This document shows, piece after piece, positions 12,676-46,860 of a DNA stretch of 64,000 nucleotides. A program made the position numbers and the translations under genes. Below the pieces are notes generated by a model, which worked only from the letters and a program-made list of their open reading frames with translations, did not search any database and was not told the origin of the DNA. The DNA is from a virus: positions 11,392 through 75,391 of the IMG/VR virus record IMGVR_UViG_3300032092_000021. One strand, written 5' to 3'. Each line of letters opens with the position of its first letter. The first letter of the stretch is position 1.

Positions 12676-12692
12676 CGTAAATTAGTAATAGT

Positions 12693-12878: not shown

Positions 12879-12882
12879 TATT

Positions 12883-13178: not shown

Positions 13179-13196
13179 CTATTAAACTTATATAAA

Positions 13197-30348: not shown

Positions 30349-31262
30349 TGGATTATAACTATACCCTGAAATACAGGACTTTTGATTCTCTTCTTGAGGA
30401 TGTTAAGATGGATCTCAGAAACTTGTCAGCTGATACAAGTATTGAACCTGCGCAGCTTATCAAAGTAGCACGTAAGTGTAACTATGATCTTGGTCTTAGA
30501 ATTCAAAAAACTAGAGAGACTGTTCTTGAGATAGAGAAAAGCAAAGCTCGTCTTCCTGAAGATTTTCAGATAATGAACTTTGCACTTATCTGCGGTAACT
30601 ATACCGTTGTAGAAGTTCCTCCACAAGGAACTAATGTTCAAGAGATTGTACCTGGATATAGACCTTGGATTGAATCTAATACTTGTTCTGACTGTAATGG
30701 TACTTCACCGGAAACAACTTGTATGACTCAATGTGGCACTGACTATACTCTTGTTCAGATGGTCAATACAGTTAGGAGAGAGTTTAGAACTTTTTCTCCC
30801 ATATCATTTAGAAGTTCTCAGTTTGTAGATGTAGAGTGTCCTAATGCATGTTCACCAAGATGGCATAACAAAGATGAAGCTTATATCAAAGATGGTTGGG
30901 TGTACACCAACTTTGAAGACGGTAATCTATATATTAATTACCAAGCAGATATGGTAGATGATGAGGGTAATATTATTGTACCAGATCATCCTATGCTTAA
31001 TGAGTATTATGAATACTCACTCAAGAAAAGAATTCTTGAGAATCTTGTAATGGATAATGTGAATGTTACAGGACAATACCAACTTATTTCTGCAGAGCAC
31101 AGAGTTGCTAGAAACGCAGCATTCAGTATTGTTAATACTCCTAACTTCTCTGAGATGATGAGGGTGTGGGCGATGAACAGAAAAGCAATGTACTCTAGGT
31201 ACTACAATATGTTTAAGAGCCACTACCATCCTTTTAATTTAAGAGTTAATAACGCTGTTTAA
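30348..31262 (+). CDS. tail tubular protein (P22 gp4-like role)
   Basis: ARLPEDF and YTNFEDG.LYINY....DDEG...VPD motifs; located immediately before the stabilization/muzzle gene. Confidence 0.6.
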   Translation: MDYNYTLKYRTFDSLLEDVKMDLRNLSADTSIEPAQLIKVARKCNYDLGLRIQKTRETVLEIEKSKARLPEDFQIMNFALICGNYTVVEVPPQGTNVQEIVPGYRPWIESNTCSDCNGTSPETTCMTQCGTDYTLVQMVNTVRREFRTFSPISFRSSQFVDVECPNACSPRWHNKDEAYIKDGWVYTNFEDGNLYINYQADMVDDEGNIIVPDHPMLNEYYEYSLKKRILENLVMDNVNVTGQYQLISAEHRVARNAAFSIVNTPNFSEMMRVWAMNRKAMYSRYYNMFKSHYHPFNLRVNNAV

Positions 31263-31264
31263 TT

Positions 31265-34200
31265 ATGGCAAAGAAACAAGGTACAACTCCCGAATCAGGG
31301 ATTAGCTCTAACTCAGGATCTTTTACCAAAGGTCTTGTAAGAGACTTCGATGAAAACTTTGATCCAGAAAGTTCATGGCCTTATGCACGTAACGCTTCAA
31401 ACAATTCTAAAGAGGGTGACGTTGGTGTTTTAGGTAACGAACCATCAAACTCTGCATGTGGAGTTGCTCCCTATACAGTTATTGGTAGAATATTTTTATT
31501 TAATGCTTACTGGGCAATATTTTCTACAAATGATAGCGAGTCTGAAATAGGTGTGTATGATGAGTCGCTCTGTCAATACAGAACTGTAGTTAACCAGAAA
31601 TGTCTAAATTTTAGGAAACTAAAATTGATAACAGGTGTAGCTAAAGAAAACTTTGATTGTCAGTGGGCAGTTTACTTTGCTGATGGTAGAAATCCTGATA
31701 GGTACATAAACTTAGGTAATCCTACATTGTGGCCAGATACAATGTATATGGGTAACAACTACTACCAAAATCAGGTACTGTGGCCAGGTGTACAGTGGGT
31801 AAAAGATTGCAAAGATGTAAACGATTGTACAATTTGTGATCTTGTAAATCAGTTAGATTGTAATCAAATAAGAATTAATAAACTAGTTAAGACCCCTTGT
31901 GTCAGACTTAGCGCTACAGAGGGTGGTGGTAACTTAGCTAATGGTTCATATGTTGCTTTTGTAGCATATCTAGAAAATGGACAGAAGTATAGTGATTATA
32001 CATCTCCTTCTAATGTTCAACCTATTTTTGATCACGATAACTTAGGTGGAGCAATTACTGCTACCATATCCAATCTTGAAAATGAATCATTTACTGAGTT
32101 TGAACTTGTCATAGCAGCAACAGTAAATGGTCAAACTGTAGCTAGAAGAATAGGAATATATGCTTGCGATGACGCTCCTGTGACAGTATATTTAGATAGC
32201 ATTAATGACTCATTGACTACAGTACCTCTTGAGTTACTTCCTATAAGAACACCTCTTTATGAAACAGCAGACTCTATTTTTGAAACAGGTAGTTATCTAC
32301 TTAAGATAGGTCCTCGTACAACATTTGATTTTAACTACCAACCCCTTGCTAACCAAATTCAAGCTAAGTGGTCTATTGTAAGGTACCCTATAAACTATTA
32401 TAAGGATGGTGGTACAAATACCGGTTATATGCGGGATGAGGTTTACTCATTTTTTATCAGATGGATTTATGTAACTGGGGAAAAATCTAGGTCATATCAT
32501 ATTCCCGGAAGAATTGCGGACAGTAAAGATCTTACTGAGTCAATAGGCATCTATCCTACTGAATTAGAGTATGGTTTTGAAAAAGAAAATACCGCATCTG
32601 TAACAAGTACCACTTCATCTACTCTTTCTGATGGAGGTGTTGTAATTGCTGAAGGACAGATGGGTTACTGGGAATCTAGTGAAAAATATCCAGATAGAAA
32701 ACCTGAAATTTGGAATTCTAGCTATGATCCTAAATTGTCTGGTACAAGTCAAACAACATGGGATCTTTGTAACAAACCTATCAGACATCATAAGATGCCT
32801 GAAGATGTTATAAATAATAATGCAAATTATTCTAGAGCTATTACATTAGATGGTTCTGGAAATGTTGTTGCAAATCCTGGTTATACTGGCGCTACTCATT
32901 TGCAAGTAGTTGGTGTCAAGTTCTCAAATGTTAAACCTCCGGTTTATATAGATGATGATGGTAACGCACAAGTTGTTCCGGGTATATCTGGTTACGAAAT
33001 ACTTCGTGGATCTAGAACAGGAAATAAATCTGTTATAGCAAAAGGTATTATAAACAACATGCGTGTCTATAAAGACATCGATGATACTTTAGGTCTTTAT
33101 GCAAACTATCCATATAATCCTGTAAAAAATGCTCCTCAACCATTTGGGTTACCGACAATAGATCCTACTCTATCATTTAAAGAAGTTAATGGTAGTGGTG
33201 GTAATTATGAAGAAGTTACCGAGGCACATGTAAAGAAAAACTTTTTTACATTCCACTCTCCAGATACTAGTTTTTACAAACCATTTCTTTCTGTAAAAGA
33301 ATTAAAAATATATACAGAGTTAGGTAACTCAAAAAATGTAAAAGGAACTTTTGACCCTGTACCAGGACACCCTAAACAAAAGTTAATAACAAATGTTGCG
33401 TCTACTGCAGCTTTACTTCTAGGTATAGCAGAAGCTGTATTTGCAATGAAGGGTGATGAAGAATGGATAGCTGAGGGTAACAGAGCTTTGAATTTAGGTT
33501 TTTATGGTGCTTTTGGTGGAGCTTTAACTGCTAATGTCGGCGCATGGTCTGCACCTTTTGTGGGTCCACAAGCTGGCGCTGCAGTACTTGCTCCTCTTCA
33601 AACTGCAGAACTAGCTGCGCAAATAGGAACCAGTACTGCAGCACAAGCTTCTTTAGGTGGCTTTAGTTCATTGGGTGGTGCTTCTTTGGTTACAGGTAAC
33701 AATGCCCGACTATACAATTTAGGTGCACAGGTAGCAAATGTAGGGTATACTGCAGCAACGGGTGGTTTTATGGGACCAGGTTTAACTAAAGTTCACAAAG
33801 AAGGTACTTTATCTGGTATGCCTACACCGATTGCTGCATTTGCGGCATTACCTACTTTGTACACATTGGCTACTGCTGCTGCAGCTAAGACACTAGATTT
33901 AATTTATGCTTTTGTAAAAGCTCGTAGTTATGTTTATAGATACGCGTCTCATGGGTTTCTTCATAAGGATAATGTACCACCTTCAAATAGAAGACATTAT
34001 ATAAATGATTCAGCTTATTTGAATGAAGGTTTTAACATGTTTGCTAATTTTAAAATTAACAACATTAATAGATTTAAAACTACATTATTAAATACTAATA
34101 CTGATGTACCTGTTCCAGCTATTACAGATAATACAGGTGTCAGTCTATCTAGAAATGTTAGTCCTAGTATTCTTGATACGTCCGATGGTAGAACTAAATA

Positions 34201-36532
34201 TTACTCAGAAGAAATTGTAAGAACTATATCTACCACCGCATCTTGTTTTTACTCAGGAATAAAAATTAGATTTAGAAATCAGTACGGACAACTAGATGCC
34301 ATCAGACAGATTCCATTACCTTGTCCTCAGATTGTAAATAATAATTTAGCAATACCCGCAACTGCTATTACATCAACTCAAACAGGAACAAATATTCCAT
34401 TAGCAGTTACACAATTTAATGTTTCTTATGAAACCGGTGTATTGTTTGGAGGAGATACCTATATAGGTAGATACACAGAAAAGAATACTTTCTTTTATTT
34501 TTATGACTGGTTGTATGGTCAGCCAGATGACACTCCTTTTAACTATAGATCTAAATACTTAGGTTTATATCCAAGATACTGGGCAGACTTTAGCAGATAC
34601 GACATAGATGGTATGATACCTTCTATGCTGCAAAGTTTGAGTAATCCTGGTTCATGGGAAACTCCAAATAATCAAGTAAATCTTGAACAAGAAGCACCTA
34701 CAGGAAGTGGTTTAACAGGACTTGTAGGATTTGTTGCAGGAGCTGTTAGTTCTGTGTTCAGTGGTCTTTTAAGTTTATTTAATCTGGGTGACAATGAAAA
34801 TCAAAATGCTGGAGGCAGTAAATTTAGTTTTAGTATTAGAAGAGGTTTCATGTATCTCTTTAACTCTGGTGTAAGAGATTTTTATGTAGAGTCAGATATT
34901 AATGTGGATCAAAGAGACTGGGGTGAGCTAGATGAGCAAAAACACTTTGAGATTCTTTCTGACCTTAAAAGATTATTTGACACTCGAATTATTAAGTTCG
35001 GTAACTACTATAAGATTGATCCATCTGTTTCATTGTCAAAGCTTTACTACAGTGTAGTATCCTGGGGTAACATGCAGGATAGAGATTACAATCCGATTGT
35101 AGCTGCGCTGTGCTATAAGTATTTACCAAACAGAGTCATCTACTCATTGCCCACAGTACTTGAAGGTAAGAAGGATGGTTGGAGATTATACTTACCAAAC
35201 AACTATAGAGACTTTAAATCTAAGGTTACTGCTATTAGACCTATAGGTAAGAATGGAGCGCTGATGCTTTTTGATAGGGATAGTCCCGTTCAGATTCAGG
35301 GTACCGAAACTCTTGAGTCCGATATGGGAACTAAGATTACAGTAGGTGACGGTGCATTGTTTAATAAACCATTACAGGCACTTATAAACACAGACCAGTC
35401 TTATGAGTACGGATCTTGTCAAGATAAGTTTTCAATTCTAAATACCCCAGCTGGCATCTACTGGGTATCCCAATCCCTAGGAAAAGTATTTACAGTAGGA
35501 AGCGGACTAGAAGAGATATCAGCATCTGGTATGCGTTGGTGGTTTAGTAAGTTTTTACCTTACAGAATACTAGAGGATTTTCCAAATTTTGAAGCTATAG
35601 ACAATCCTGTAATTGGTGTAGGTTGTCAAGCTGTTTATGATAATGACTCTTTGATGATATACTTTAGTAAGAAGGACTATGAACTTAAAAAAGATTTACC
35701 CGCAGGAATTAGTCTTACTTATGTAGGTGGTATAGATTTTCTTTTAAACACAGGGGGTTCTTCCGGAAGACCTAATGCTGCTAAAATTAAATTGGGTGAC
35801 CCTACCTACTTTAATGATGTCTCATGGACAATATCGTATGACCCTAAAGCAAAAGCTTGGGTGTCTTTCCACGATTGGCACCCTACAATGATGATTCCTA
35901 GTAACCAGAATTTTATAACTATCAATGATAATACTTTCTGGAGACATAATGATCGCACAGATAGTTTCTGTAACTACTACGGTAAAGATTACCCTTTTCA
36001 AGTAGAGTATGTAGTAGACACAGGACAAGCAGTAAATACTTTAAAAAGTATAGAATATTTACTTGAATCGTATATTTACGATATAGATGGTATAGATAGA
36101 TTCCAGATCTTAGACTTTAACTTTGACGAGCTTACTGTATATAACTCTGAGCAGGTATCCGGAAAACTTATTCTCAACATGGCACCTAAGGATAATCCTT
36201 TTGCCAGATTGAACTATCCTGCTGTAACTGGTGCAGGGATAAATATCATGTACGAGAAAGTAGAACAGAAGTTTAGAGTAAATCAGTTCTGGGATGTTAC
36301 TGCAGATAGAGGTGAATATAACGTAAACGTACAGAGACCGATATGGTTAACAGGATGGGATGGATACAGAAGAGAGCTTAATCCAGCTAACCTTAACTAT
36401 GCTAAGTCTGTATTTGAAAGAAAGAAGTTTAGACATTACTACAACAACGTTTTGTTTACCAGAAAGGTTTCAGGTAATGCTAAAATGCTAATGAAGATAT
36501 CTAATAATAAGAACTTACTCTCACCAAGATAA
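31265..36532 (+). CDS. tail stabilization / muzzle protein (P22 gp10-like role)
   Basis: 1755 aa; F.KGL..D N-terminus, GYMRDEVYSF, FGGDTYI and WTISY....AWVSFHDW.P motifs typical of crAss-like muzzle proteins. Confidence 0.75.
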   Translation: MAKKQGTTPESGISSNSGSFTKGLVRDFDENFDPESSWPYARNASNNSKEGDVGVLGNEPSNSACGVAPYTVIGRIFLFNAYWAIFSTNDSESEIGVYDESLCQYRTVVNQKCLNFRKLKLITGVAKENFDCQWAVYFADGRNPDRYINLGNPTLWPDTMYMGNNYYQNQVLWPGVQWVKDCKDVNDCTICDLVNQLDCNQIRINKLVKTPCVRLSATEGGGNLANGSYVAFVAYLENGQKYSDYTSPSNVQPIFDHDNLGGAITATISNLENESFTEFELVIAATVNGQTVARRIGIYACDDAPVTVYLDSINDSLTTVPLELLPIRTPLYETADSIFETGSYLLKIGPRTTFDFNYQPLANQIQAKWSIVRYPINYYKDGGTNTGYMRDEVYSFFIRWIYVTGEKSRSYHIPGRIADSKDLTESIGIYPTELEYGFEKENTASVTSTTSSTLSDGGVVIAEGQMGYWESSEKYPDRKPEIWNSSYDPKLSGTSQTTWDLCNKPIRHHKMPEDVINNNANYSRAITLDGSGNVVANPGYTGATHLQVVGVKFSNVKPPVYIDDDGNAQVVPGISGYEILRGSRTGNKSVIAKGIINNMRVYKDIDDTLGLYANYPYNPVKNAPQPFGLPTIDPTLSFKEVNGSGGNYEEVTEAHVKKNFFTFHSPDTSFYKPFLSVKELKIYTELGNSKNVKGTFDPVPGHPKQKLITNVASTAALLLGIAEAVFAMKGDEEWIAEGNRALNLGFYGAFGGALTANVGAWSAPFVGPQAGAAVLAPLQTAELAAQIGTSTAAQASLGGFSSLGGASLVTGNNARLYNLGAQVANVGYTAATGGFMGPGLTKVHKEGTLSGMPTPIAAFAALPTLYTLATAAAAKTLDLIYAFVKARSYVYRYASHGFLHKDNVPPSNRRHYINDSAYLNEGFNMFANFKINNINRFKTTLLNTNTDVPVPAITDNTGVSLSRNVSPSILDTSDGRTKYYSEEIVRTISTTASCFYSGIKIRFRNQYGQLDAIRQIPLPCPQIVNNNLAIPATAITSTQTGTNIPLAVTQFNVSYETGVLFGGDTYIGRYTEKNTFFYFYDWLYGQPDDTPFNYRSKYLGLYPRYWADFSRYDIDGMIPSMLQSLSNPGSWETPNNQVNLEQEAPTGSGLTGLVGFVAGAVSSVFSGLLSLFNLGDNENQNAGGSKFSFSIRRGFMYLFNSGVRDFYVESDINVDQRDWGELDEQKHFEILSDLKRLFDTRIIKFGNYYKIDPSVSLSKLYYSVVSWGNMQDRDYNPIVAALCYKYLPNRVIYSLPTVLEGKKDGWRLYLPNNYRDFKSKVTAIRPIGKNGALMLFDRDSPVQIQGTETLESDMGTKITVGDGALFNKPLQALINTDQSYEYGSCQDKFSILNTPAGIYWVSQSLGKVFTVGSGLEEISASGMRWWFSKFLPYRILEDFPNFEAIDNPVIGVGCQAVYDNDSLMIYFSKKDYELKKDLPAGISLTYVGGIDFLLNTGGSSGRPNAAKIKLGDPTYFNDVSWTISYDPKAKAWVSFHDWHPTMMIPSNQNFITINDNTFWRHNDRTDSFCNYYGKDYPFQVEYVVDTGQAVNTLKSIEYLLESYIYDIDGIDRFQILDFNFDELTVYNSEQVSGKLILNMAPKDNPFARLNYPAVTGAGINIMYEKVEQKFRVNQFWDVTADRGEYNVNVQRPIWLTGWDGYRRELNPANLNYAKSVFERKKFRHYYNNVLFTRKVSGNAKMLMKISNNKNLLSPR

Positions 36533-39500
36533 TGAATTGGCTAGATAAATTTATAGTATCCGAAAGAGGTCAGTGGGATTATCCCGGTTATCCTACAGTA
36601 ATTCCAACTAAAAATGGTAGAATAACAATGGAAGGTGTTCCATATCCTGTAATAGGATTTGTTCCTGGACAACCTCCTGTTATGATGCAACCTGGTAAAA
36701 ATTATAAATTTCCAGGTAACATGGTGTATGAAATACCTGTAACGGAAAATAAGGTTTTTAAAACCAAGGAGGATTTTTATAGAGATCTATTACTACAAAC
36801 AAGAAATAAATACTGGCCAAAAAGAGAAAGTAAACCTTTTGATTTAGGTTTTGATAGTGCGTTACCTAGAGTTGGTCCAGGACCAATTAAAATGCCTACT
36901 ATAAGATCTAGTTATACCGGCATTGCAATGAAGCAAGGTGGACATATACTTCCAGGTAGACTTAAAAACCCAGAAGGTAACTGGGTGTCAGTATATGCTA
37001 ACGGAGGAGACATATCTATCCCAGATTTGTCTAGACCTAATTGGTTAGATAAGTATCAATCTAAAACTACATCTGGTTCTGTTTCTAAATCTGGTCCAAG
37101 AATTGAAAACTTACCGATTCAGAAAGTTGATAACAAACTAGAAATAGCATATGATGGAAGCACTGTATACGTGCGTAAGATAGGTGAAGAGAAATTTACC
37201 ACGCTTAACCCGGAGAAGTCTAAAGCTTTTATTCAAAAGTACCAAGGGTTTATACCACCAACTCTAACTCAGGTTGAGGAACAGAAAAAGAAACAAGCTG
37301 CTTATAATGCAAAGATTGCCAAAGAGAAGAAAGAGTTTGATGAACTTCGCAAGGTAGATACTACTCCTAACCCTAGGGAGAAGGAGATGATGATAGAGCT
37401 TGCTAGAAAAGAAAGAGCAGAGCTAGGTGAAAAAGGTTTTCTTGAACAAGCATGGGACGCCTTACCAAATGCATCTTCTATTACAGATCCTATTAAAAGA
37501 GCATATCATGCTTTACCGGATGTTGGAGATGTATCTAAGGTTGCTAGTGGAATGATGGGTCTACCCGAAGAGCTAGCAAAACAAGGAGTAAGCTATCTTT
37601 GGAATAATTATAAAGTACCTCAGACCGATATTCCAGTTTTAAGGAGTATTGGTGAGCTTACACCAAAAGAGATATACGAAAGTTTTCAAAACAGATATGT
37701 AGAAAAAAACTTTGGTGAAGCAGGTTTGATAGGTGAATCAAATCTTGAAGAGTTTAATGTTCTTGATGAGACATCTGGCACATCTAACATGCAAGAACTA
37801 CCTAAAAGTAGAGCTAAGTACGGACCTCAAAGTTTACCATTAAGAAAAGACAGTAGAGGTAACTTGCTTCCTGCATATCAACCTATTGGTGGAAATGACT
37901 CGTTAGCTAGATTTAGTTACACATTTAACAATGACATTGCTGGTGCTGATAGTTTACCGCCAACCCACTTTGTTACTCCTAAGATAAAAGAGCTTACAGG
38001 AAATCCAGATCGCCCTAGACAATGGGACAATGCATTTGCTGTAGGTGATTTCTTGAGAGACGCAGATATAACTGAGAATCAGTTTTATCATCCCGATAAA
38101 TACTACGTGGGTACCTCTAACAGTGCATTGCGTAATAGTGATCTAGGTATAAAAAGTAATAAACTTATAAGTGCAAGTAATCAGCTAATTAACGATCCTG
38201 AAAAATACTGGGCAGTATATAAGTGGGATCCAAAAAATTCTGAAGCTGCGTGGGTTAGATACATGAAGACTGATGAGATAAAATCTAAAAAAGATGAACT
38301 TGAAAAACAAGGGTGGAGTCTAGATATGCCTGTTTCTGGTCAACACAGATTTGATGACGTAGATTGGGAGGGTAAAGGTTCAGATACAGGATACAAGGCA
38401 GACTCTGAATGGGTACCTCTTAAGAAAGGTGCAAAACAAATAAAGAGTCAGAAAGGTGTAAATCATACCTACATTCCTCAAGGTACAAGTAAGGGTCAAG
38501 ATAAAGGTACTTACAATTTATTCTCGGGAGGTTCTATAACATTTATATGGAAAGATCCAGAGACCAATGAAAGATTAGCTTCAACTTTAGCTGGATCTGT
38601 ATCTGATATGAAAGCATATGGTGAAAAGCTTAAGAAAGAATATGGTTTGAAGGAAGGTGATCTTGAGATTGTTTATCATGATACAGGATCATACTCTGCT
38701 AAACCTGCTGCTAAAGATGGTACCCTATACTACGATCAGTGGAAAAACTACAATGCGTACAACAAGGGTTACTCTGGTGCAGCACTGATAGTACCTACAC
38801 AAGATTGGTTAGAGAACTGGACTCCTAATAAGAAAGAAGGAGGACAACTAGATAAGTATCAATCTAAAGATACAGGTGCTATAAAAAAAGGATGGCATCA
38901 AAAAGTTTATAATGATCCTGATGCATTTGCAAAAGCTAATAAAGCTTTTAACGATAGTCTTAATCTTAGCAAAAGAAGTTACGAGCTTCTTAAGGATATA
39001 GCTCCTAACAGCTCATATAAAAGTAATATTCCCTATGAAGATGTATATTTTACTGCTGATGGACCAGGTGGTTATTTTATAGATAATGTTGACTTTGGTA
39101 GGCAGTTTTTAGGTTTAAATTATTTAACGGATACTAATTTTAGAATACCTGGCACAAAAGAGCAACTTATTTTAGAAGAAGCTTTTTCAAAAAGAATAAA
39201 ACCAATAGGTTTTAATACAACTGACTTTCCAGTACCTATTTATAAATGGCCAACCGAAGAGCCCGTGTATGAAGAACTTAAAAACTTACCTTATCTAGAT
39301 GCGAAACTGGAGCGTCCTGATTTTAAGTTAGATATAGGTAAACCACCGGTAAAGTCTCAGGGTATTAGAATTAGACCTATGATGACTGCCGATCAAACTA
39401 CCAGTACTGGTCAGTATCAATCCGGTAAGTATATGTGGGATCCAGAAACAAAATCCTGGAAAGTCAAAATGCTAAGTCCTGAAACTCAACAAGAAAACAG

Positions 39501-41667
39501 AAAAGAGGTTAGAATAGGGATTAAAAAATATGGAGGTTGGTTAGATAAATACCAAGATGGTAAAGAAGTAAAAACATATGCTAATGATCCTAGCTACTTT
39601 GACAATCGTGCTGTATTTGTAGATAATCCACAAGCTAATGATCTAGTTAGATCTAAGGTGTATGCCGGAACACATGGATGGGATCCTAACACCAATTCAT
39701 TAGTTAAGCTTGATAAACCAGTTGCTGTACCTAAAGCTGTGCAAGAGATGTCTACAGCAGATTGGGGTAAGAAAAGGTCTAAGGAAAGATTTGAATCTAA
39801 CACACCAGCTGGTAAAGCTACAAGAAAAGCAGTAGTTGCAAGAGATATGCAACAGATGGTACAAAACCCTGCGTTCTACGCTCCCGGTGCTATTGCAGCT
39901 GGAGCACTTGCAGCACCCGCACTTGCGGGAGTTGCGGGAACACTAACAGCACCTTTGACTATAGGATCAACTGTAGTTCCAGGAGCTACTATGGGTAATG
40001 CGTTAGCTGCAGGATTTGCTGCAGATGCACTCGTAAATAGATTGCCACAAATCCCAGGACAATTAAACAGAGGTGAATATAGTGATGCTGCTATTAATGC
40101 CGCAACAGGATTACTAGATGTGGGGTCTGCTGGTATGCTTAACTCTTTATATAAGACTGCAACAAAAGCTATTAAGTCTACATACGCTCCTTCCGAACTA
40201 GATATTATTAGAGGTCTATTAAAAAAGGGAAACCAACGCCAAATAGAAATAGAGCGTAATGTAAAACCAGTTCAGGCTACAATATCACAAAATCCATATT
40301 CAGTAACATTACCAACTCTTACAAAAGAAGAAGATCTTATAAGAGATAGTTATAATAGAAACAGATGGTCTAATGATCCCGGATTCTGGAGATGGTATAA
40401 TAAAAAACATCATGGTTTAGATTACGATAGACCTATTAAAAGATTTTTTGATCCATCAGATCCTGGACATTTGTCTGATACTGCTGATGATGCAAATAGA
40501 GTATCATTCTTTGACTCTTCCGAGATGTCAAATATAGACAGTCAAATTAAACAAGGTAATACTTGGTTACAAGATTGGTTTAAAAATCCTGCTACTGCTC
40601 AAAGAATAGCGAATACAGGGTTTGACGAGTCTTCGTTAGTTAGAAAAAACATTAACGATTTTGTAGATAATAAAAATGTTGTAAGATTTGAGCCCTCCTT
40701 AAGCTCAAAAATATGGACAGGAAATGAATTAGGAAGTTACTTTCCTAAGTCTAATAAAGCATATGTAGATGCGGAGCATTTTTCTTTTATGGATGGAACC
40801 AAATCAATACCATCAACAGTAATACATGAGGGTACGCATTTAACAAGTGCTGGAGAACTTGCTTATAATCAGAAACTAACAGATCTTACAGCTGATATAT
40901 TTAGGGGTAGTGATGCAAGTGAGTTTGCTAAAATGTTCCGTACAGAAAATGATATTAAAAAAGTTAATAAACTGACATCTCCTGCAGAAACACATGCTAG
41001 GATTATGCAAATAAGACAACAGTATAATATAAAACCAGAGCAAATAGTTGATGATACAGTTATCAATAAAATTATAGAGGACGGTCTTTCCGGTAAATTG
41101 CCCGTAAGCAAAAAATTCTTTGAGCTAATTCAAAACAAAGATGCTTTCAAAAAAGCAATGAATACTTTACCTGCAATAGGTGCGGGCGTTGCTATAGGTA
41201 CTGGAGGATTACAAGAAAAGAAAACCGGTGGATCAACAAGATGGTTAGATCGATATCAGGATGGTGGGTCTAGAGAGATGCCACTCGGACTACCCTTGAG
41301 AGAACAAAACGTTTACTTACTTCCTGAGTATAATCAACCAATGGCTAATGGTTATATTCTTCCTGATCCTAACAGACCAGAGTTAATGAATACAGGAGCT
41401 ACTGAGTATAAGTATTCATATGGAATGGACGACAGAGATGTTCAAGTTCCAAGTGTAGTAGCAGGTCAGTATATTGGAGATAGAGCTTTTGATAGATATA
41501 TGATATCCGGAGAAGAGTTTAAACCAATGGTTGACCCAAGTTCCTATAGCCAATACTACGATATGCTTAATAGATTAGGGTTAATGAAACAGAAAAAAGG
41601 AGGAGAAATGTCCCCAAGTATGGGATATTTTAACTATATTGGTGGATATGGGGGTATGTTGCCTTAA
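36532..41667 (+). CDS. modular virion cargo protein with repeated GG/WLDKYQ linkers and a zincin metallopeptidase module
   Basis: HEGTH at 40825-40839 plus ETHAR; linkers at 37042, 38830, 39523 and 41218. Confidence 0.65.
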   Translation: MNWLDKFIVSERGQWDYPGYPTVIPTKNGRITMEGVPYPVIGFVPGQPPVMMQPGKNYKFPGNMVYEIPVTENKVFKTKEDFYRDLLLQTRNKYWPKRESKPFDLGFDSALPRVGPGPIKMPTIRSSYTGIAMKQGGHILPGRLKNPEGNWVSVYANGGDISIPDLSRPNWLDKYQSKTTSGSVSKSGPRIENLPIQKVDNKLEIAYDGSTVYVRKIGEEKFTTLNPEKSKAFIQKYQGFIPPTLTQVEEQKKKQAAYNAKIAKEKKEFDELRKVDTTPNPREKEMMIELARKERAELGEKGFLEQAWDALPNASSITDPIKRAYHALPDVGDVSKVASGMMGLPEELAKQGVSYLWNNYKVPQTDIPVLRSIGELTPKEIYESFQNRYVEKNFGEAGLIGESNLEEFNVLDETSGTSNMQELPKSRAKYGPQSLPLRKDSRGNLLPAYQPIGGNDSLARFSYTFNNDIAGADSLPPTHFVTPKIKELTGNPDRPRQWDNAFAVGDFLRDADITENQFYHPDKYYVGTSNSALRNSDLGIKSNKLISASNQLINDPEKYWAVYKWDPKNSEAAWVRYMKTDEIKSKKDELEKQGWSLDMPVSGQHRFDDVDWEGKGSDTGYKADSEWVPLKKGAKQIKSQKGVNHTYIPQGTSKGQDKGTYNLFSGGSITFIWKDPETNERLASTLAGSVSDMKAYGEKLKKEYGLKEGDLEIVYHDTGSYSAKPAAKDGTLYYDQWKNYNAYNKGYSGAALIVPTQDWLENWTPNKKEGGQLDKYQSKDTGAIKKGWHQKVYNDPDAFAKANKAFNDSLNLSKRSYELLKDIAPNSSYKSNIPYEDVYFTADGPGGYFIDNVDFGRQFLGLNYLTDTNFRIPGTKEQLILEEAFSKRIKPIGFNTTDFPVPIYKWPTEEPVYEELKNLPYLDAKLERPDFKLDIGKPPVKSQGIRIRPMMTADQTTSTGQYQSGKYMWDPETKSWKVKMLSPETQQENRKEVRIGIKKYGGWLDKYQDGKEVKTYANDPSYFDNRAVFVDNPQANDLVRSKVYAGTHGWDPNTNSLVKLDKPVAVPKAVQEMSTADWGKKRSKERFESNTPAGKATRKAVVARDMQQMVQNPAFYAPGAIAAGALAAPALAGVAGTLTAPLTIGSTVVPGATMGNALAAGFAADALVNRLPQIPGQLNRGEYSDAAINAATGLLDVGSAGMLNSLYKTATKAIKSTYAPSELDIIRGLLKKGNQRQIEIERNVKPVQATISQNPYSVTLPTLTKEEDLIRDSYNRNRWSNDPGFWRWYNKKHHGLDYDRPIKRFFDPSDPGHLSDTADDANRVSFFDSSEMSNIDSQIKQGNTWLQDWFKNPATAQRIANTGFDESSLVRKNINDFVDNKNVVRFEPSLSSKIWTGNELGSYFPKSNKAYVDAEHFSFMDGTKSIPSTVIHEGTHLTSAGELAYNQKLTDLTADIFRGSDASEFAKMFRTENDIKKVNKLTSPAETHARIMQIRQQYNIKPEQIVDDTVINKIIEDGLSGKLPVSKKFFELIQNKDAFKKAMNTLPAIGAGVAIGTGGLQEKKTGGSTRWLDRYQDGGSREMPLGLPLREQNVYLLPEYNQPMANGYILPDPNRPELMNTGATEYKYSYGMDDRDVQVPSVVAGQYIGDRAFDRYMISGEEFKPMVDPSSYSQYYDMLNRLGLMKQKKGGEMSPSMGYFNYIGGYGGMLP
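37046..38868 (+). repeat. 20-nt exact direct repeat TAGATAAGTATCAATCTAAA at 37046-37065 and 38849-38868
   Basis: Read directly. Encodes LDKYQSK and brackets a ~600-codon module. Confidence 0.85.
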
Positions 41668-41698
41668 TGAGTATCTTTGACTTATAAATAATTCTAGT

Positions 41699-43954
41699 AT
41701 GAAAAAAGAATTTATGCGAATAGGGGGAGCTAAAACTGAAAAAGAGTTTTACGAAATGTACCCAACAGAAGAAGCTTTCCTTATGAAACATGGTGGCGCT
41801 ATAAATAAACTTATGGCAAAAGGTGGTGAAGCATATCCACAAACAGCTACTATGGATAACTTTTTTAGTTACGGGGTACCAGTCCCACCTACTTACTATC
41901 GTCAGGGTGGTGCATTCCCTATGGCACAACCAGAGAATCAGTTCTTCTCCCCTTTCTATGGAAACGTTCCTAACCCATACAATAAAGCTATGGGTGGAAG
42001 CTCTGAAGCATATCCCCAGTCAATGTCTTTTCCCTATGGAGACACTGGTAGAAGCACACACTTTATGATGGAAGAGGGTGGGTATATGCCTGAAGAACAA
42101 ACTCTGCCAAAGATGGGAGTCAACGGTAAACTCCTAGAGTTTGTTGGTACTATTAAAAACACAGCTACTAATAAACTAAACAGTAATCTTGCTACATACG
42201 GTAAAGTAAAGAACCCTGAGCAGTATGAATTTGAGCAAGCTAAATACGGTGGTAATCTAAAAAAATATCAGGCTGATGCTACTTCCGGAAATACACCACC
42301 TCAAGACGCTGGTGCTGTTTCTGACAAACCTGCAGGAAGCAATGTTTACAATTATTACTACGGATATGATCCTCGTCAGAATCAAGGAGCTGGTCAACTT
42401 CCTCCAGAATACTATAATGACATAGACTATTTACGTGGAAGAAGAAGACCACTCAGTGACTTTAATATTCGCGGTAGAGGTATGGCGGGTAATTATAGAG
42501 CAACTGGTTGGTTGAAAGATGAGTATGGATTGGATAGACTTAGAGAAATGGGTCTAACTAGAATGGATCAAAGTAATCCAAGATGGTGGCAGTTAATGAA
42601 GCGTCCTACACAAACTTACTATTTTGGAAATCAGGGACAAGGACCAATGGGATATGTACCAGGTCAAGTAGATCAACAAGGTATGCCTATTACAAACCAA
42701 CAAGGACCTGCTGCAGGGGGTGCAGGTACTACTGGTACTACTGGCGGCACAGGTACTACCGGTACAGGTCAACCAGATTCTACATCAGATTTAGGTTTCT
42801 TTGCTAGACTGTTTAATAGACAAGGTAATATAACTCCGCAGTCAGCAAATATTACTAGGAAACCTACAGATCTTCAAGCAGGATCTCCTGAAATGATTAG
42901 TGACGCTAACCCCTATGCTTATAACATTGCAAAGTCTGATACTTGGAACCAGATTCAACAGAATAAGAGAAAGAGAATTTTTGGAAAGCTGGATGAACTA
43001 GAAGGTCGTAAACAGTGGCAAAAAGATACTCTTGGTTTAGCTTATGACAATATGAAAAATAAACCTGTTGATCCTGTAACGGGTAAACCGTTTGATAGAG
43101 AGGAATATATGGCAGCAGGTGACCAGTTATACGGCAGGAAAAAAAGACAAGAAGATAGATTAAAGAGAAGAGAAACAAGATCAAACGATAGATTTGGCAT
43201 TTACGATGAAGGTGGCAGCACACCCCCATGTCCTCCAGGATATACTTGGAAAGGAGGACAGTGTGTAAAACAATCTAGAAAAGAAAGAAGAGAAAACCCT
43301 CAGCAATATCAATCTCATGTAGGGGAATCTTATAGAACTCCTGTTACTGCTGCTGAATATAAAAGACAAGAAGAAAGTAAAGCTAGAGAACAAGAGCTCA
43401 TGAGACAGGAAGCTGAGCAAGAAAAGTATTTAAGAGATCTTCCTACTATGGATTCTTCTGAAGAGTACCTTAAAAATAATCCTAAGGATACACCTTTTGT
43501 AAAAAATAAAGATGTTACAGTAGGGACACCCATAACAGAAGATCCATATAGAGCTTTACCGGGAGCTAATCCAGTGCTTACTTTTCCTTTAACTAGTTAT
43601 GAGCAGTTTTATCCTCAGAACATGATTAAAAGAGATGTTTATGCTCCACAGATGGAAGTACCATATGAGTTTCCTAATTACACAGATCGTGAGAGACTTT
43701 CGAATCTTTTAGATGCTGTTGATGCTGGACTTATTCCATCTAATTTTCGTACTACTGATCCAATGGAAATAGAAAGACAAAATAGAATTTCAGATGCTGT
43801 TGGTTCTGGAGTACCTTTTAATCTATCCGGTCCTAGAGAATACAGAAAAGGTGGATCTTCTAGAAATTACAATACGGGAGATGTAGTAGATATGACTCCG
43901 GAAGAACTAAAGAGATTCATTGAAATGGGTGGTCAAGTAGAATTCTTAGACTAA
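41699..43954 (+). CDS. low-complexity virion cargo protein with many xxGG motifs
   Basis: MKHGG, MAKGG, YRQGG, KAMGG, MEEGG, AKYGGNLKKYQ, YDEGG, YRKGG. Confidence 0.6.
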   Translation: MKKEFMRIGGAKTEKEFYEMYPTEEAFLMKHGGAINKLMAKGGEAYPQTATMDNFFSYGVPVPPTYYRQGGAFPMAQPENQFFSPFYGNVPNPYNKAMGGSSEAYPQSMSFPYGDTGRSTHFMMEEGGYMPEEQTLPKMGVNGKLLEFVGTIKNTATNKLNSNLATYGKVKNPEQYEFEQAKYGGNLKKYQADATSGNTPPQDAGAVSDKPAGSNVYNYYYGYDPRQNQGAGQLPPEYYNDIDYLRGRRRPLSDFNIRGRGMAGNYRATGWLKDEYGLDRLREMGLTRMDQSNPRWWQLMKRPTQTYYFGNQGQGPMGYVPGQVDQQGMPITNQQGPAAGGAGTTGTTGGTGTTGTGQPDSTSDLGFFARLFNRQGNITPQSANITRKPTDLQAGSPEMISDANPYAYNIAKSDTWNQIQQNKRKRIFGKLDELEGRKQWQKDTLGLAYDNMKNKPVDPVTGKPFDREEYMAAGDQLYGRKKRQEDRLKRRETRSNDRFGIYDEGGSTPPCPPGYTWKGGQCVKQSRKERRENPQQYQSHVGESYRTPVTAAEYKRQEESKAREQELMRQEAEQEKYLRDLPTMDSSEEYLKNNPKDTPFVKNKDVTVGTPITEDPYRALPGANPVLTFPLTSYEQFYPQNMIKRDVYAPQMEVPYEFPNYTDRERLSNLLDAVDAGLIPSNFRTTDPMEIERQNRISDAVGSGVPFNLSGPREYRKGGSSRNYNTGDVVDMTPEELKRFIEMGGQVEFLD

Positions 43955-43959
43955 TTACA

Positions 43960-46860
43960 ATGAAAGTTAGAATCACAAAAGCTCCTAAGGTTAAAAAGTA
44001 TCAAGCTTTATTTACCCCTGGTCAAGTAGAGGAGGATCCTTTTTATGTACCAAACAGTATGGATGGTCAAAGGAATTATGTAAATGCTCCTATTAATTTA
44101 CAAACTAATCAAAATGGTAGTCTTGCTGGTTCTGGTGTTTTACAACCCGGATTAGCTCTTGATAAAAACAACCAGACTGTAAATCTCAATAATGTAAACG
44201 ACAACGTTACAAATGAGCAACAAATTAGCAAAGGTTTGCAAGGTAGCATAACAGAAAAAGGTCAGTCAAAGTTTGGTCAGTTTATAAGAGGTTTAGGACC
44301 TAAAGGTGGAATGAAGGCTTATGAAAATCGTCAAGACTGGAAAGAGATTATTGCGGGGATTGCTAGCAGAAAGAGTAAAAAAGATATGGATGCGCAAGCC
44401 GTTAAAGGTTTTCATAATATGCAACCTATTGCTGCAGCAACCCAGGGTACGTTTGATCCTAATAGTATGAATAACTTTACTCCTGGTATGCTAAACACAG
44501 TACCTTCTACAGGAGATTTTGCTGCATCACCATATATGAATATGGGTTATGGAAAAAATGGTGGTCAATACATGGCATATGGTGGTAGAGTGTTTAATCA
44601 GGTAGCACCTAATGCTTTACCCGATAAAACATCTGAACCTAGAATAGCTGTATCAAATACACTACAGCCAATACCTAGAGAGTTTGCAAATATTGAAGCA
44701 GAGAAAGATGAGACTATATACTTCTTAAACAACGGTGGTCTTCCTGCACATTATAAGATTGGTGGTCAACCGCACAGCAAGGGAGGAACTCCTTTAAATG
44801 TTCCCGAAGATAGCTTTGTATTTAGTAAAGCGTTGAAGATTAAGGATAAAAGATTGTTTCCTTTTTTTGATATAAATAAACCTACCAGCTTTTCAGATGT
44901 TGCTAAAAAATACGATATAAATAAATTTAGAAAAGTATTAGCAGATCCTGATACGGACAAGTTGCAAAGAGAAACTGCCGAGAAGATGATTGGTAACTAC
45001 AATCTTAAACTCGGTATGTTAGCTTTAGCGCAAGAATCTACAAAAGGATTCCCGCAAGGTTTACCTATGATAGCTGCACCGTTTACTGCAGTTAATGCGC
45101 TAGATCCAGAAATGATTTTACCTACACCACCTCAGTCTGCTGAGATGCCGGAAGAACAATTTATGGAACAAGAGATGCCCGCTTATAAATTCGGAGGAGC
45201 TATGAGAGTTAGAATTAAATCTTTACCTAGATATCAGTCATACAATACTGGTGCTAGTGTTGCTGATGATATGATGTCAGATGCTGGTTTATCTGACCAA
45301 ACTTACGTACAAACCCCACCAGCAAATATACCCCCACCTCCACCTGTTGCTGTTGTTACACCTGCTGCACCAGCAGCACCTCCTGCAGCAACTGTAGCTA
45401 CTCCTACAGCTACTCCTCCACCTACTATTGTGGTAAATGGAGTTACAATAGATACAGCAACTAATCAACCTGTAGCTAAGTCTTCTCCTGCTAGTGACAA
45501 TAAAAAGAAAGCATCTAAATCAGAGTCTAAAAGTACCGCAGGTACATTTGATTTCAATGTAGATGTTATGGAGGGTAATCCTGACTTTTGGCAGGGTTAC
45601 ACTGATTTGGTTACATCTGGTGTTATCAAACAAGAATTAGCAACAGGGTTTGAAGATGCTGCTGTTCGTCAGCGCGAAAGTCAACAAGGTCTTAGACCAG
45701 GTACTGCAAACGTATATGGTGATAGAGATATTCATAAGGGAGAACTCTTTGATGACTTTAAGAAAAGACAAGCGTGGTATTTTCAAAATAAGAAAAACTG
45801 GAATCCTGAAAATAAAGCTGACGTAGAAGACTTTCAAAGAGAGTATTGTAAAAAAGCTGCTGAGTACGGTATGAAGTCTTGTTACTTTAATACCAAGGAT
45901 GTAAAAGATTCTAAAGGTAGAACTATAAAGGGGACTACGTTTGATGGTCTTTATGGTGAGCACACTTTTAATGCTCCAGGATTTAATAAAGCTGATGCAC
46001 AACCAGAACCTCAACCACAACCTCAACCAGAACCAGAAAAAAAACCAGAACCTATTAAGACTAATCCTTTAGATGTATCTGAGGATTATACTCGTAGAAG
46101 CGGTTATTTCCCTCAGGATCTTATAAATCTTTCTGCAGCTTTAGCTCAAAGAATTACTGTACCTGATACATGGTATGCTCCTTTACAGTTTAAAGGTGTA
46201 GACCCTGCGTATCTGGTACCGGACTATAGTCCAATCATGGAAGCTGCTAATATTAGCACTCAGGGTGTTAATGCTTATGGTTCTCGTCAAAGTGCAGATG
46301 CTTCATTTGCTCTTATTCAGGGTAAATCAGCAAGACCTTCTGCGGAACATAATCTAGCAGTTGCTAATGCTAATGCAGGTATTTACAATAACGCTCAGCA
46401 GATTAACGCACAGATAGCAAATCAAAATGCTATGTACAATAATCAGTTAGCTCAAGCAGACTTTGATGCTAATGCACTTTATGAGCAAGAAAGAATAAAA
46501 GCTCAGAATAAAAAGAGAGCGGATCTTGCTAGACTTGTAAACACCGCGATTACCAATAGAGCTACTGCAGAAACTCTTAGCGATGCATACTCCGAGTATT
46601 TCAATATAGATCCTACTCGTGGCGGACATGTTGAGTTCTACAAAGGAATTGATGAGCTTGTACCTAACGACAAAGCAGATATGGACGATCTTGCATCACT
46701 TGATAAACAGCTTACAAATCTTGGTTACACTAAAGAAGAAAAGAAAGATATTCTTAAATCTGCACTAGCCAGTAAGTATGCTACAAAGGGTACTAGGAAT
46801 CCATATCTACCTGATTACTCGCAGCTTATGTATCCATTTAACATGCAGCAGGGTTCTTAA
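43960..46860 (+). CDS. virion cargo/ejection protein with EAE..E / G..H..GG domain and a peptidoglycan-binding-like motif
   Basis: ANIEAEKDE, GGQPHSKGG, DVEDFQ...DGLYGEHT; Pro/Ala-rich and (QP/EP)n linkers; Asn/Gln/Ala-rich coiled-coil C-terminus. Confidence 0.6.
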   Translation: MKVRITKAPKVKKYQALFTPGQVEEDPFYVPNSMDGQRNYVNAPINLQTNQNGSLAGSGVLQPGLALDKNNQTVNLNNVNDNVTNEQQISKGLQGSITEKGQSKFGQFIRGLGPKGGMKAYENRQDWKEIIAGIASRKSKKDMDAQAVKGFHNMQPIAAATQGTFDPNSMNNFTPGMLNTVPSTGDFAASPYMNMGYGKNGGQYMAYGGRVFNQVAPNALPDKTSEPRIAVSNTLQPIPREFANIEAEKDETIYFLNNGGLPAHYKIGGQPHSKGGTPLNVPEDSFVFSKALKIKDKRLFPFFDINKPTSFSDVAKKYDINKFRKVLADPDTDKLQRETAEKMIGNYNLKLGMLALAQESTKGFPQGLPMIAAPFTAVNALDPEMILPTPPQSAEMPEEQFMEQEMPAYKFGGAMRVRIKSLPRYQSYNTGASVADDMMSDAGLSDQTYVQTPPANIPPPPPVAVVTPAAPAAPPAATVATPTATPPPTIVVNGVTIDTATNQPVAKSSPASDNKKKASKSESKSTAGTFDFNVDVMEGNPDFWQGYTDLVTSGVIKQELATGFEDAAVRQRESQQGLRPGTANVYGDRDIHKGELFDDFKKRQAWYFQNKKNWNPENKADVEDFQREYCKKAAEYGMKSCYFNTKDVKDSKGRTIKGTTFDGLYGEHTFNAPGFNKADAQPEPQPQPQPEPEKKPEPIKTNPLDVSEDYTRRSGYFPQDLINLSAALAQRITVPDTWYAPLQFKGVDPAYLVPDYSPIMEAANISTQGVNAYGSRQSADASFALIQGKSARPSAEHNLAVANANAGIYNNAQQINAQIANQNAMYNNQLAQADFDANALYEQERIKAQNKKRADLARLVNTAITNRATAETLSDAYSEYFNIDPTRGGHVEFYKGIDELVPNDKADMDDLASLDKQLTNLGYTKEEKKDILKSALASKYATKGTRNPYLPDYSQLMYPFNMQQGS

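What the first reader, a model, noticed from the sequence alone, without database searches (positions are those of the whole stretch)
36532..46860. Cargo proteins built as polyproteins: modules delimited by a recurring xxGG + [WL]-D/K-K-YQ tag that re-creates each protein's N-terminus
Seen: the 1711-aa protein starts MNWLDKF, and the same signal recurs internally right after di-glycine motifs: YANGG..NWLDKYQSK (36994-37065), KKEGGQLDKYQSK (38830), KKYGGWLDKYQDG (39523) and KKTGGSTRWLDRYQDGG (41218); MKQGG and KKGG also occur. The 751-aa neighbour has about nine [KMYE]xxGG motifs, including AKYGGNLKKYQ. The 966-aa protein begins MKVRITKAPKVKKYQ and internally has YKFGG-A-MRVRIKSLPRYQ, a second copy of its own N-terminus directly after GG. 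The sequences between tags look unrelated to each other. Known: di-Gly sites are the cleavage signals of adenovirus protease and ASFV pS273R polyprotein processing, and T4 internal proteins carry a short cleaved capsid-targeting sequence. Inference: a tag-and-cleave system loads diverse effectors into the head as polyproteins and releases them as separate proteins, each beginning with the same targeting peptide. I know of no description of this for crAss-like phages.
Basis: partly seen in the sequence, partly recalled or inferred. Interest (0 to 1): 0.9.

Follow-up and report, generated by a model that had tools for sequence, protein, structure and literature searches.

The report
Conserved peptide tags in phage cargo proteins
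Three proteins that this uncultured crAss-like phage probably carries in its particle and injects are strings of unrelated modules whose ends and joints carry short conserved peptides (mainly Trp-Leu-Asp-Lys-Tyr-Gln on glycine hinges); the pattern is real, confined to these genes and undescribed, but the evidence favours uncut docking tags over a cut polyprotein.

Summary
The 1711-aa protein (36532-41667) carries five copies of [W/Q]LD[K/R][Y/F]: four LD[KR]YQ where shuffling gives 0.002. In 70 metagenomic relatives the consensus is KK-x-GG-WLDKYQ-DGG. It sits at N-termini, at module joints and at exact C-termini. Many relatives carry it at both ends. In four complete relatives it occurs only just downstream of the muzzle gene, the cargo position. 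Modules are unrelated and are swapped at the tags. One module is a zincin metallopeptidase. The 966-aa protein repeats its own N-terminal peptide (KVRI-x-K-x-P) after an internal GG, and relatives at 25-30% identity do the same.

The tag-and-cleave reading is only partly supported. GG is absent upstream of 29% of tags and its spacing varies. C-terminal tags have nothing downstream to target. No candidate protease is shared by the complete relatives. In crAss001 the look-alike joint AFGG-WLNTQ-GG lies inside the gp45 stretch (425-552) reported as resolved.

Best reading (about 0.5): uncut docking or handling tags on glycine hinges in modular ejected proteins. Cleavage stays possible (about 0.25). 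This scan has already noted Gly-Gly seams in at least eight other crAss-like genomes. The WLDKYQ form, the tag at both ends and the restriction to cargo genes are what this report adds.

The parts
36532..41667 (+). P0001, 1711-aa modular cargo or ejection protein, directly downstream of the muzzle gene
   Evidence: ORF. Mosaic homology to 70 metagenomic proteins, with breakpoints at the tags.
36535..36552 (+). N-terminal W-tag variant NWLDKF (aa 2-7)
   Evidence: Relatives start MKNWLDKYQ, MNWLDKF and similar.
36553..36747 (+). M1 domain (aa 8-72; GQWxYPG..ITMxGVPYPV.G..MMxPG..YxFxG), the most widespread module
   Evidence: Alignments. Relatives encoded in 387 viral contigs. No Pfam, PDB or gp45 match.
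36994..37059 (+). Seam 2: YANGG-DISIPDLSRPN-WLDKYQ (aa 155-176)
   Evidence: HSP ends cluster at aa 128-176.
38830..38862 (+). Seam 3: KKEGG-QLDKYQ (aa 767-777)
   Evidence: 11 HSP ends fall in aa 760-779.
39523..39555 (+). Seam 4: KKYGG-WLDKYQ (aa 998-1008)
   Evidence: 20 HSP ends fall in aa 980-1019.
39874..40041 (+). Apolar Gly/Ala-rich stretch (aa 1115-1170), a possible membrane-inserting segment
   Evidence: Read from the translation. Conserved in relatives (consensus). crAss001 gp45 also has a predicted TM helix. No TM predictor was run.
40501..41178 (+). M7: zincin-like metallopeptidase module (aa 1324-1549; HEGTH at 40825-40839, third ligand E1486)
   Evidence: 236 relatives. H1432, E1433 and H1436 are 98-99% conserved and E1486 is 100% conserved. 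AF2 pLDDT is above 90. The structure hits are mostly zincin peptidases, best Z 6.5 to PPEP-2.
41218..41268 (+). Seam 5: KKTGG-STR-WLDRYQ-DGG (aa 1563-1579), GG three residues from W
   Evidence: Low pLDDT with a short helix on WLDR in the AF2 model. 12 HSP ends fall in aa 1560-1579.
41269..41664 (+). M8: conserved C-terminal module (aa 1580-1711)
   Evidence: 75-83% identical at the C-termini of many relatives. Poorly modelled.
41699..43954 (+). P0002, 751-aa second cargo protein with [F/L/M]-M-x-x-GG seams and one tag, AKYGG-NLKKYQ (42254-42271)
   Evidence: Positional relatives in four complete genomes share the N-terminus and the GG excess, for example 21 against 9.7 expected.
43960..46860 (+). 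P0003, 966-aa third cargo protein
   Evidence: 100 homologs, mostly full length. AF2 folds aa 230-390, about 540-680 and 710-895.
43960..44004 (+). N-terminal KVRI tag, MKVRITKAPKVKKYQ
   Evidence: Conserved as M-[KR]-(K)-V-[KR]-I-x-K-x-P in relatives. Low pLDDT.
45184..45237 (+). Internal copy after GG: YKFGG-AMRVRIKSLPRYQ (aa 409-426)
   Evidence: Conserved as KYGG-xx-KVxIKxLP and co-varies with the N-terminal copy down to 25-30% identity. It lies in the low-pLDDT linker 391-486.
31265..36532 (+). Muzzle protein gene (context: it sets the cargo position)
   Evidence: Pfam crAss_MUZ, E 1.2e-23.
29674..31262 (+). Tail ring proteins R2 (29674-30348) and R1 (30348-31262) (context)
   Evidence: Pfam CrAss_Ring_2 E 3.5e-21 and CrAss_Ring_1 E 8.9e-12.

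Best explanation
The three genes after the muzzle gene encode virion-borne cargo (ejection) proteins built as beads on a string. Unrelated, independently folding modules are joined by flexible, glycine-rich linkers. The modules include a small conserved M1 domain, an apolar segment and a zincin peptidase; relatives also carry peptidoglycan hydrolase and binding domains. The linkers, and both protein ends, carry short conserved peptides. These are the W-tag WLDKYQ in the first protein, a KVRI-x-K-x-P tag in the third, and Phi-M-x-x-GG seams in the second. I propose that the tags are not cut. They act as short linear docking or handling motifs held on Gly-Gly hinges and are read by one shared virion component. 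Candidates are the portal, the inner wall of the tail barrel, the muzzle and a scaffold. That would load the proteins into the particle and hold them in an extended, ordered state for ejection. This resembles crAss001 C1 being held at separate points in the tail and on the portal, and the terminal loading peptides of encapsulin cargo. Because every module border carries the same peptide, borders are also where modules are exchanged between phages. Shown: motif, conservation, placement, restriction to cargo genes, mosaicism, zincin fold. Inferred: packaging, docking, absence of cleavage, identity of the receptor.
For: Motif far above chance. Consensus KK-x-GG-WLDKYQ-DGG from 124 unique instances, with W 92%, L 98%, K 92% and Y 99%; 14 are N-terminal, 13 at the exact C-terminus and 97 internal. 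Many relatives carry the tag at both ends, M-x-x-WLDKY[QE]-xGG ... GGWLDKYQ*, at lengths from 258 to 1374 aa, so the ends are constant and the payload varies. In four complete genomes the tag pattern occurs only 1.8-9 kb downstream of the muzzle gene, on the same strand and nowhere else. GG is a dispensable hinge: it is adjacent in 57%, three residues away in 11%, and absent within 8 residues in 29% of non-N-terminal tags. Codons of D, K and Y in 62 tags match background usage, so selection acts on the peptide. HSP ends lie within 12 aa of tags 65 times out of 200, against 18 expected. Tags lie in low-pLDDT linkers next to high-pLDDT domains. crAss001 gp45 residues 425-552 begin AFGG-WLNTQ-GG and are reported as resolved density on the portal; a second resolved stretch, 214-245, starts just after SAYGG. 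crAss001 virion bands of 150, 270 and over 300 kDa fit uncut large cargo proteins. No shared protease was found in complete relatives.
Against: No receptor is identified. The equivalence of 'N-terminus' and 'just after GG' in two protein families, sometimes with the Met kept (GG-A-M-RVRIK), is what a GG-directed cut would predict. The crAss001 joint only resembles the tag; it is two residues shorter and comes from a distant phage. Homology of these proteins to crAss001 C1 could not be shown. The own genome is only about 63% complete. A host protease or an unknown protease fold was not testable. No virion data exist for any phage with this tag: the M1 domain, tested with the copy from relative L011, has no match in the phage collection.
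Confidence: 0.5

Rival explanations
1. Tag-and-cleave polyprotein. A protease cuts at the seams, either GG|W or after the Gln (WLDKYQ|DGG). This happens in the procapsid or after ejection and releases separate effectors. Natural termini mimic processed ends.
For: The N-terminal peptide recurs right after internal GG in two families and co-varies over deep divergence. The seams are exposed linkers. P0001 carries a zincin peptidase with intact catalytic residues, and the genome encodes an S8 subtilase. Iyer et al. 2017 (PMC5512222) predict that zincin peptidases process injected polyvalent proteins. Natural C-termini ending ...WLDKYQ* would look like products of a cut after Gln.
Against: GG is missing or displaced in about 40% of tags. 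C-terminal tags end variably, at Y, Q, QD, K or N. Neither the zincin, the S8, nor S78, ClpP, C39 or C48 proteases are present in four complete tag-bearing genomes; the own genome served as a positive control. The crAss001 look-alike joint lies inside the gp45 stretch reported as resolved in the virion. Bayfield 2023 and the 2023 Crassvirales review do not mention proteolysis.
Confidence: 0.25
2. Passive joints. The peptides are scars of repeated gene fusion and fission (old C-terminal xxGG plus old N-terminal leader). They also supply short shared DNA that promotes recombinational module shuffling. No partner reads them.
For: Breakpoints of mosaic homology coincide with the tags. Proteins of very different lengths share the ends. 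The tag DNA is often identical between genomes, for example TGGTTAGATAAATACCAA in three records. Leu codons in tags are biased to TTA.
Against: Internal tags are as conserved as terminal ones (W, L, K and Y at 92-99%) across proteins that otherwise share nothing. Synonymous sites of D, K and Y vary as in the background, and the five copies in P0001 differ at synonymous sites. Linkers under no selection would not hold a hexapeptide fixed. The tag is confined to cargo genes.
Confidence: 0.15
3. Internal translation starts. The internal copy of the N-terminal peptide in the 966-aa protein (GG-A-M-RVRIK) marks a nested in-frame gene, giving a long and a short product with the same N-terminus.
For: The Met is kept in the closer relatives. 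The Gly-Gly codons GGA GGA form a GGAGGA box 3 nt upstream of the ATG at 45202.
Against: More distant relatives keep the peptide without the Met (GG-AKKVRIK). None of the 27 real starts in the window has a GGAGG box; they have A/T-rich leaders (79% A+T against 55% here). The W-tags have no Met.
Confidence: 0.03

Closest known systems
Cargo protein C1 (gp45) of Bacteroides phage crAss001 (Bayfield et al. 2023, PMC10172136; Pfam PF25725 crAss_CARG1)
   Same: The gene lies directly after the muzzle gene. Both are long, partly disordered proteins with an apolar segment, and both have Phi-x-GG joints. The Pfam domain of gp45 begins with AFGG-WLNTQ-GG, which resembles YGG-WLDKYQ-DGG. gp45 is held at separate points in the tail barrel and on the portal, which fits a protein docked by several short elements.
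   Different: No detectable sequence or profile homology. The proteins here are much more modular. They carry the tag at both ends and include enzyme modules such as a zincin. No function has been proposed for the joints of gp45.
Polyvalent proteins of phages and conjugative elements (Iyer, Burroughs, Anand, de Souza, Aravind 2017, PMC5512222)
   Same: Many unrelated effector-like domains sit in one giant polypeptide that is thought to enter the host with the DNA. A zincin-like metallopeptidase is among the domains. Cell-wall-attacking domains occur in relatives. The architecture is extensively mosaic.
   Different: That work describes no recurring junction or terminal peptide and does not cover crAss-like phages ('crAss' occurs 0 times). 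The zincin here matches no Pfam model of that set.
Terminal targeting peptides: T4 capsid targeting sequence of internal proteins, and encapsulin cargo-loading peptides (my own knowledge)
   Same: A short conserved peptide at a protein end, on a flexible linker, shared by otherwise unrelated cargo of an HK97-fold shell.
   Different: Here the peptide is also internal, multi-copy and at both ends. No binding pocket is known, and no prohead protease of the T4 kind was found.
Gly-Gly-directed viral polyprotein processing (adenovirus protease, ASFV pS273R, Ulp1-like clan CE; my own knowledge)
   Same: Gly-Gly precedes many joints, and the sequence after the joint resembles a protein N-terminus.
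   Different: GG is dispensable and variably spaced. No C48 protease is present, and there is no evidence of cutting.

Membership tests
crAss cargo protein 1 (Pfam PF25725 crAss_CARG1) | Sequence match to the portal-binding C1 domain | tested here: not met
   No Pfam hit for P0001-P0003, whole or in pieces, up to E 5. A six-frame search of the own genome and four relatives found none. Positive control: gp45 hits at E 2.3e-66. Profile against PDB and hhalign against gp45 were not significant.
crAss cargo protein 1 (Pfam PF25725 crAss_CARG1) | Gene directly downstream of the muzzle gene in the late structural operon | tested here: met
   Muzzle at 31265-36532. P0001 starts at 36532. The order in crAss001 is gp44 then gp45.
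crAss cargo protein 1 (Pfam PF25725 crAss_CARG1) | Present in virions, spanning tail and capsid | not testable with these tools
   The phage is uncultured. The M1 domain, tested with the copy from relative L011, has no match in the GenBank phage collection.
Polyvalent proteins (Iyer et al. 2017) | Two to fifteen unrelated domains in one polypeptide of a phage or conjugative element | tested here: met
   At least eight independently exchanged modules. Relatives carry Glucosaminidase, PG_binding_1, LysM and YkuD domains.
Polyvalent proteins (Iyer et al. 2017) | Zincin-like metallopeptidase domain | tested here: inconclusive
   HExxH plus a downstream Glu are conserved, and structure matches are to zincin folds (Z at most 6.5). 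No match to any Pfam peptidase model beyond Aspzincin_M35 at E 0.1.
Polyvalent proteins (Iyer et al. 2017) | Delivered into the host with the DNA | not testable with these tools
   Inferred only from gene position.
Gly-Gly-directed polyprotein processing (clan CE: adenain, pS273R, Ulp1) | A clan CE protease encoded by the virus | tested here: not met
   PF02902 (C48) is absent from the own genome and four complete relatives, and the control genome rang. C5 adenain and the pS273R family were not searched.
Gly-Gly-directed polyprotein processing (clan CE: adenain, pS273R, Ulp1) | Invariant Gly-Gly at fixed register before the scissile bond | tested here: not met
   Of 99 non-N-terminal tags, 56 have adjacent GG, 11 have GG three residues away and 29 have none within 8 residues.
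Gly-Gly-directed polyprotein processing (clan CE: adenain, pS273R, Ulp1) | Mature products smaller than the gene product | not testable with these tools
   There are no virions. The only related structure has the look-alike joint inside the gp45 stretch reported as resolved.
T4-type capsid targeting sequence | N-terminal only, removed by a prohead protease | tested here: not met
   The tags are also internal and C-terminal. S78 and ClpP-type proteases are absent. S77 was not searched.
Encapsulin-type cargo-loading peptide | Short conserved terminal peptide on a flexible linker, shared by unrelated cargo | tested here: met
   This is a likeness of form only.
Encapsulin-type cargo-loading peptide | Binds a pocket on the inner face of the shell protein | not tested
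   No model of tag with capsid protein was made.

The most novel reading that the evidence does not exclude
The tags are the recognition code of a still unidentified protease, viral or host, that cuts the injected polyproteins at every seam. One gene would then deliver several separate effectors, each starting with the same peptide: a true tag-and-cleave payload system in the most abundant gut and aquatic phage order.
Probability: 0.2. Interest if true: 0.85.

Novelty: new variant of a known kind. Interest (0 to 1): 0.62.

Why it matters
How crAss-like phages select, store and order the several megadaltons of protein they inject is unknown. A short peptide shared by otherwise unrelated cargo modules, confined to the cargo genes and conserved across many uncultured phages, is a concrete handle on that question. 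It predicts a receptor site in the particle. It offers a way to recognise cargo genes in metagenomes, and a possible tag for loading foreign proteins into such particles. It also shows that these proteins are shuffled module by module at fixed joints, which bears on how phages diversify their injected enzymes (cell-wall hydrolases, peptidases).

Tried and rejected
- Complex prediction of ring protein 1, ring protein 2 and P0001 aa 990-1040 gave no answer (score 0.00). It is no evidence either way.
- Assigning P0003 or M1 to crAss001 C1 failed. BLASTP, profile against PDB, hhalign and Pfam were all not significant. My by-eye alignments of the GG-x-H / DY-x-F-S stretches are unsupported.
- Fold searches of the whole P0003 model returned only long-helix matches. 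Its beta domain 230-390 was not searched alone.
- P0001 and the M1 copy of relative L011 have no match in the GenBank phage collection. The M7 module has no close relative in IMG/VR by pattern scan.
- The exact tag pattern in 596 Gb of bacterial genomes gave 8 hits, the number my own estimate from the pattern's information content gives for chance. Only one is real: a 112-kb contig binned with a Sediminibacterium MAG.
- An internal start at 45202 was considered and judged unlikely.
- The supplements of Shkoporov 2018 did not yield a band-to-protein table for gp45.
- The first alignment of 37 full-length proteins failed.
Full report
**Context**

The window is the late region of a crAss-like phage. 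The genes run: terminase (2610-4826), portal (4828-7590), major capsid protein (8948-10576), tail ring proteins R2 and R1 (29674-31262), and the muzzle protein (31265-36532; Pfam crAss_MUZ, E 1.2e-23). The three genes of the finding follow the muzzle gene directly. That is the position of cargo proteins gp45 and gp46 in crAss001. The record is 75,391 bases and about 63% complete.

**Observation**

- The strong signal is not the di-glycine but the hexapeptide. LD[KR]YQ occurs 4 times in the 1711-aa protein against 0.002 in residue shuffles. L[DK][KR][YF] occurs 5 times against 0.21.
- GG alone is not enriched in that protein (13 against 11.2) and is only marginally enriched in the other two.
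- Some GG pairs in the 966-aa protein are invariant structural glycines inside a confidently folded domain.
- Self-comparison finds no significant similarity between modules. The only matches are weak ones (E 0.12-0.75), three of them at or beside seams.

**The W-tag in relatives**

- A search of 5.8 billion proteins returned 70 relatives, all metagenomic. Most share only 4-50% of the query.
- Nearly all carry the same peptide. From 124 unique instances the consensus is K-K-x-G-G-W-L-D-K-Y-Q-D-G-G, with W, L, K and Y at 92-99%.
- 14 instances are N-terminal (MKNWLDKYQ...), 97 internal and 13 at the exact C-terminus (...GGWLDKYQ*, ...SSWLNKYK*).
- A DNA pattern scan of IMG/VR found 37 stretches, mostly on contigs of 40-115 kb.
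- Many of the proteins carry the tag at both ends, at lengths from 258 to 1374 aa.
- In four complete genomes with terminal repeats, a degenerate tag pattern matches only 1.8-9 kb downstream of the muzzle gene, on the same strand. It matches nowhere else in about 112 kb.
- The gene order in those four genomes is: muzzle; a 288-aa protein; the protein tagged at both ends (286, 569, 638 or 1887 aa); a GG-rich protein of about 1000 aa that shares its N-terminus with the 751-aa protein here; then further large proteins.
- In bacterial genomes the pattern occurs at about the frequency my own estimate gives for chance. The one real hit is a 112-kb contig binned with a Sediminibacterium MAG. It hints at a Bacteroidota host.

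**Modularity**

BLAST segments between the 1711-aa protein and its relatives start and stop at about aa 72, 128-176, 763-777, 997-1026, about 1210, about 1310 and 1556-1579. Of 200 segment ends, 65 lie within 12 residues of a tag, against 18 expected. The modules are:

- **M1 (aa 8-72).** Relatives are encoded in 387 viral contigs. It sits at N-terminal, internal or C-terminal positions and is usually bounded by GG. It has no known family.
- **An apolar Gly/Ala-rich stretch (aa 1115-1170).**
- **M7 (aa 1324-1549).** It has 236 relatives. HExxH is 98-99% conserved and a downstream Glu is 100% conserved. AF2 pLDDT is above 90. The structure neighbours are mostly zincin peptidases, best PPEP-2 at Z 6.5.
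- **M8.** A conserved C-terminal module.

Relatives carry Glucosaminidase, PG_binding_1, LysM and YkuD domains, as expected of ejected proteins that breach the cell wall.

**The other two proteins**

- The 966-aa protein has 100 relatives, mostly full length.
- Its N-terminal peptide M-K-V-R-I-T-K-A-P recurs after the internal YKFGG. Relatives down to 25-30% identity keep both copies, and the two copies co-vary. Examples are MKKVKITKVP with GG-AKKVRIKQLP, and MKRRVKVTFLP with NKRRVKVTYP.
- Both copies lie in low-confidence regions of the AF2 model. Residues 230-390 and 710-895 are folded.
- The 751-aa protein and its positional relatives share [F/L/M]-M-x-x-GG seams.

**Is it cut?**

For cutting:
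- The equivalence of 'N-terminus' and 'just after GG' holds in two families.
- The seams are exposed linkers.
- The first protein contains a zincin, and the genome encodes an S8 subtilase.
- Iyer et al. 2017 predict zincin processing of injected polyvalent proteins.

Against cutting:
- Of 99 non-N-terminal tags, 56 have GG adjacent, 11 have it three residues away and 29 have none within 8 residues. This is not what a fixed cleavage site looks like.
- C-terminal tags precede nothing, and they end variably.
- The zincin (single sequence and profile, with the own genome as positive control), the S8, and S78, ClpP, C39 and C48 proteases are all absent from four complete tag-bearing genomes.
- In crAss001, Pfam's C1 domain and the resolved gp45 segment 425-552 begin AFGG-WLNTQ-GG. 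The joint that most resembles the tag therefore lies inside the stretch reported as resolved on the portal. A second resolved stretch, 214-245, starts just after SAYGG.
- crAss001 virions show bands of 150, 270 and over 300 kDa.
- Neither the structure paper nor the 2023 review mentions proteolysis.

**DNA or protein?**

The five copies in the 1711-aa protein differ at synonymous sites. In 62 tags the codons of Asp, Lys and Tyr follow background usage. Only Leu is biased, to TTA. Selection is therefore on the peptide. Shared DNA at the joints may still help recombination as a side effect.

**Conclusion**

I read the tags as uncut docking or handling peptides on glycine hinges, in modular ejected proteins (confidence about 0.5). 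A cut polyprotein remains possible (about 0.25), as do passive fusion scars or recombination joints (about 0.15). The closest known things are crAss001 C1, the polyvalent proteins of Iyer et al., and terminal cargo-loading peptides. None of these describes a recurring junction or terminal peptide. The paper library holds no occurrence of the motif and no account of cargo processing in Crassvirales.

This scan has already noted Gly-Gly seams in at least eight other crAss-like genomes. New here are the WLDKYQ form, the tag at both protein ends, its restriction to the cargo genes of complete genomes, the conserved duplication of the KVRI peptide, and the negative search for a shared protease.

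Noticed in passing
own genome G000:C1:5937-7988 (about 3.4 kb before the window's start): A 683-aa phage protein with a Peptidase_S8 (subtilase) domain, E 5.6e-38. It is absent from four complete relatives, so it is an accessory gene and not the partner of the tags.
   Followed up: partly
window 12221-13621: A run of small, very basic proteins (48-82 aa) in the head module. One starts MAKKLKKFQPGG, which resembles the LKKYQ / DKYQ-DGG tag form. Others carry KKLFGGG, KMEKGG, YKKGG and KMDMGG. They may be further packaged proteins using the same code.
   Followed up: no
window 40501-41178: The zincin module (HEGTH ... E1486, R1490, R1495) defines a family of at least 236 protein clusters with no Pfam model. 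It is usually a C-terminal module of large phage proteins, and only a third of the listed members carry a W-tag.
   Followed up: partly
window 36553-36747: The roughly 65-aa M1 domain has relatives encoded in 387 IMG/VR contigs but none in deposited phage genomes (tested with the copy from relative L011). It matches no Pfam or PDB entry. It is the only module kept in the smallest (286-aa) protein that carries the tag at both ends.
   Followed up: partly
window 45184-45204: The Gly-Gly codons GGA GGA form a GGAGGA box 3 nt before an in-frame ATG (45202). Real gene starts in this phage have A/T-rich leaders and no such box, so it is probably without function.
   Followed up: yes
L129 (Sediminibacterium sp. 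MAG contig JBBAJS010000010.1, 111,986 bp): A contig of crAss-like genome size, binned with a Chitinophagaceae MAG, encodes a W-tag protein tagged at both ends. It is likely a phage genome and a hint at the host group.
   Followed up: no
window 50312-56101: The 1929-aa protein downstream of the cargo genes has a weak PD-(D/E)XK nuclease match (E 1.9e-4, below the cut-off).
   Followed up: no
L121-L124 (complete relatives G005, G003, G010, G006): A conserved 288-aa protein (ending ...QFIxxPxQISYK) sits between the muzzle gene and the protein tagged at both ends in all four marine relatives. It is missing at that place in this window.
   Followed up: no
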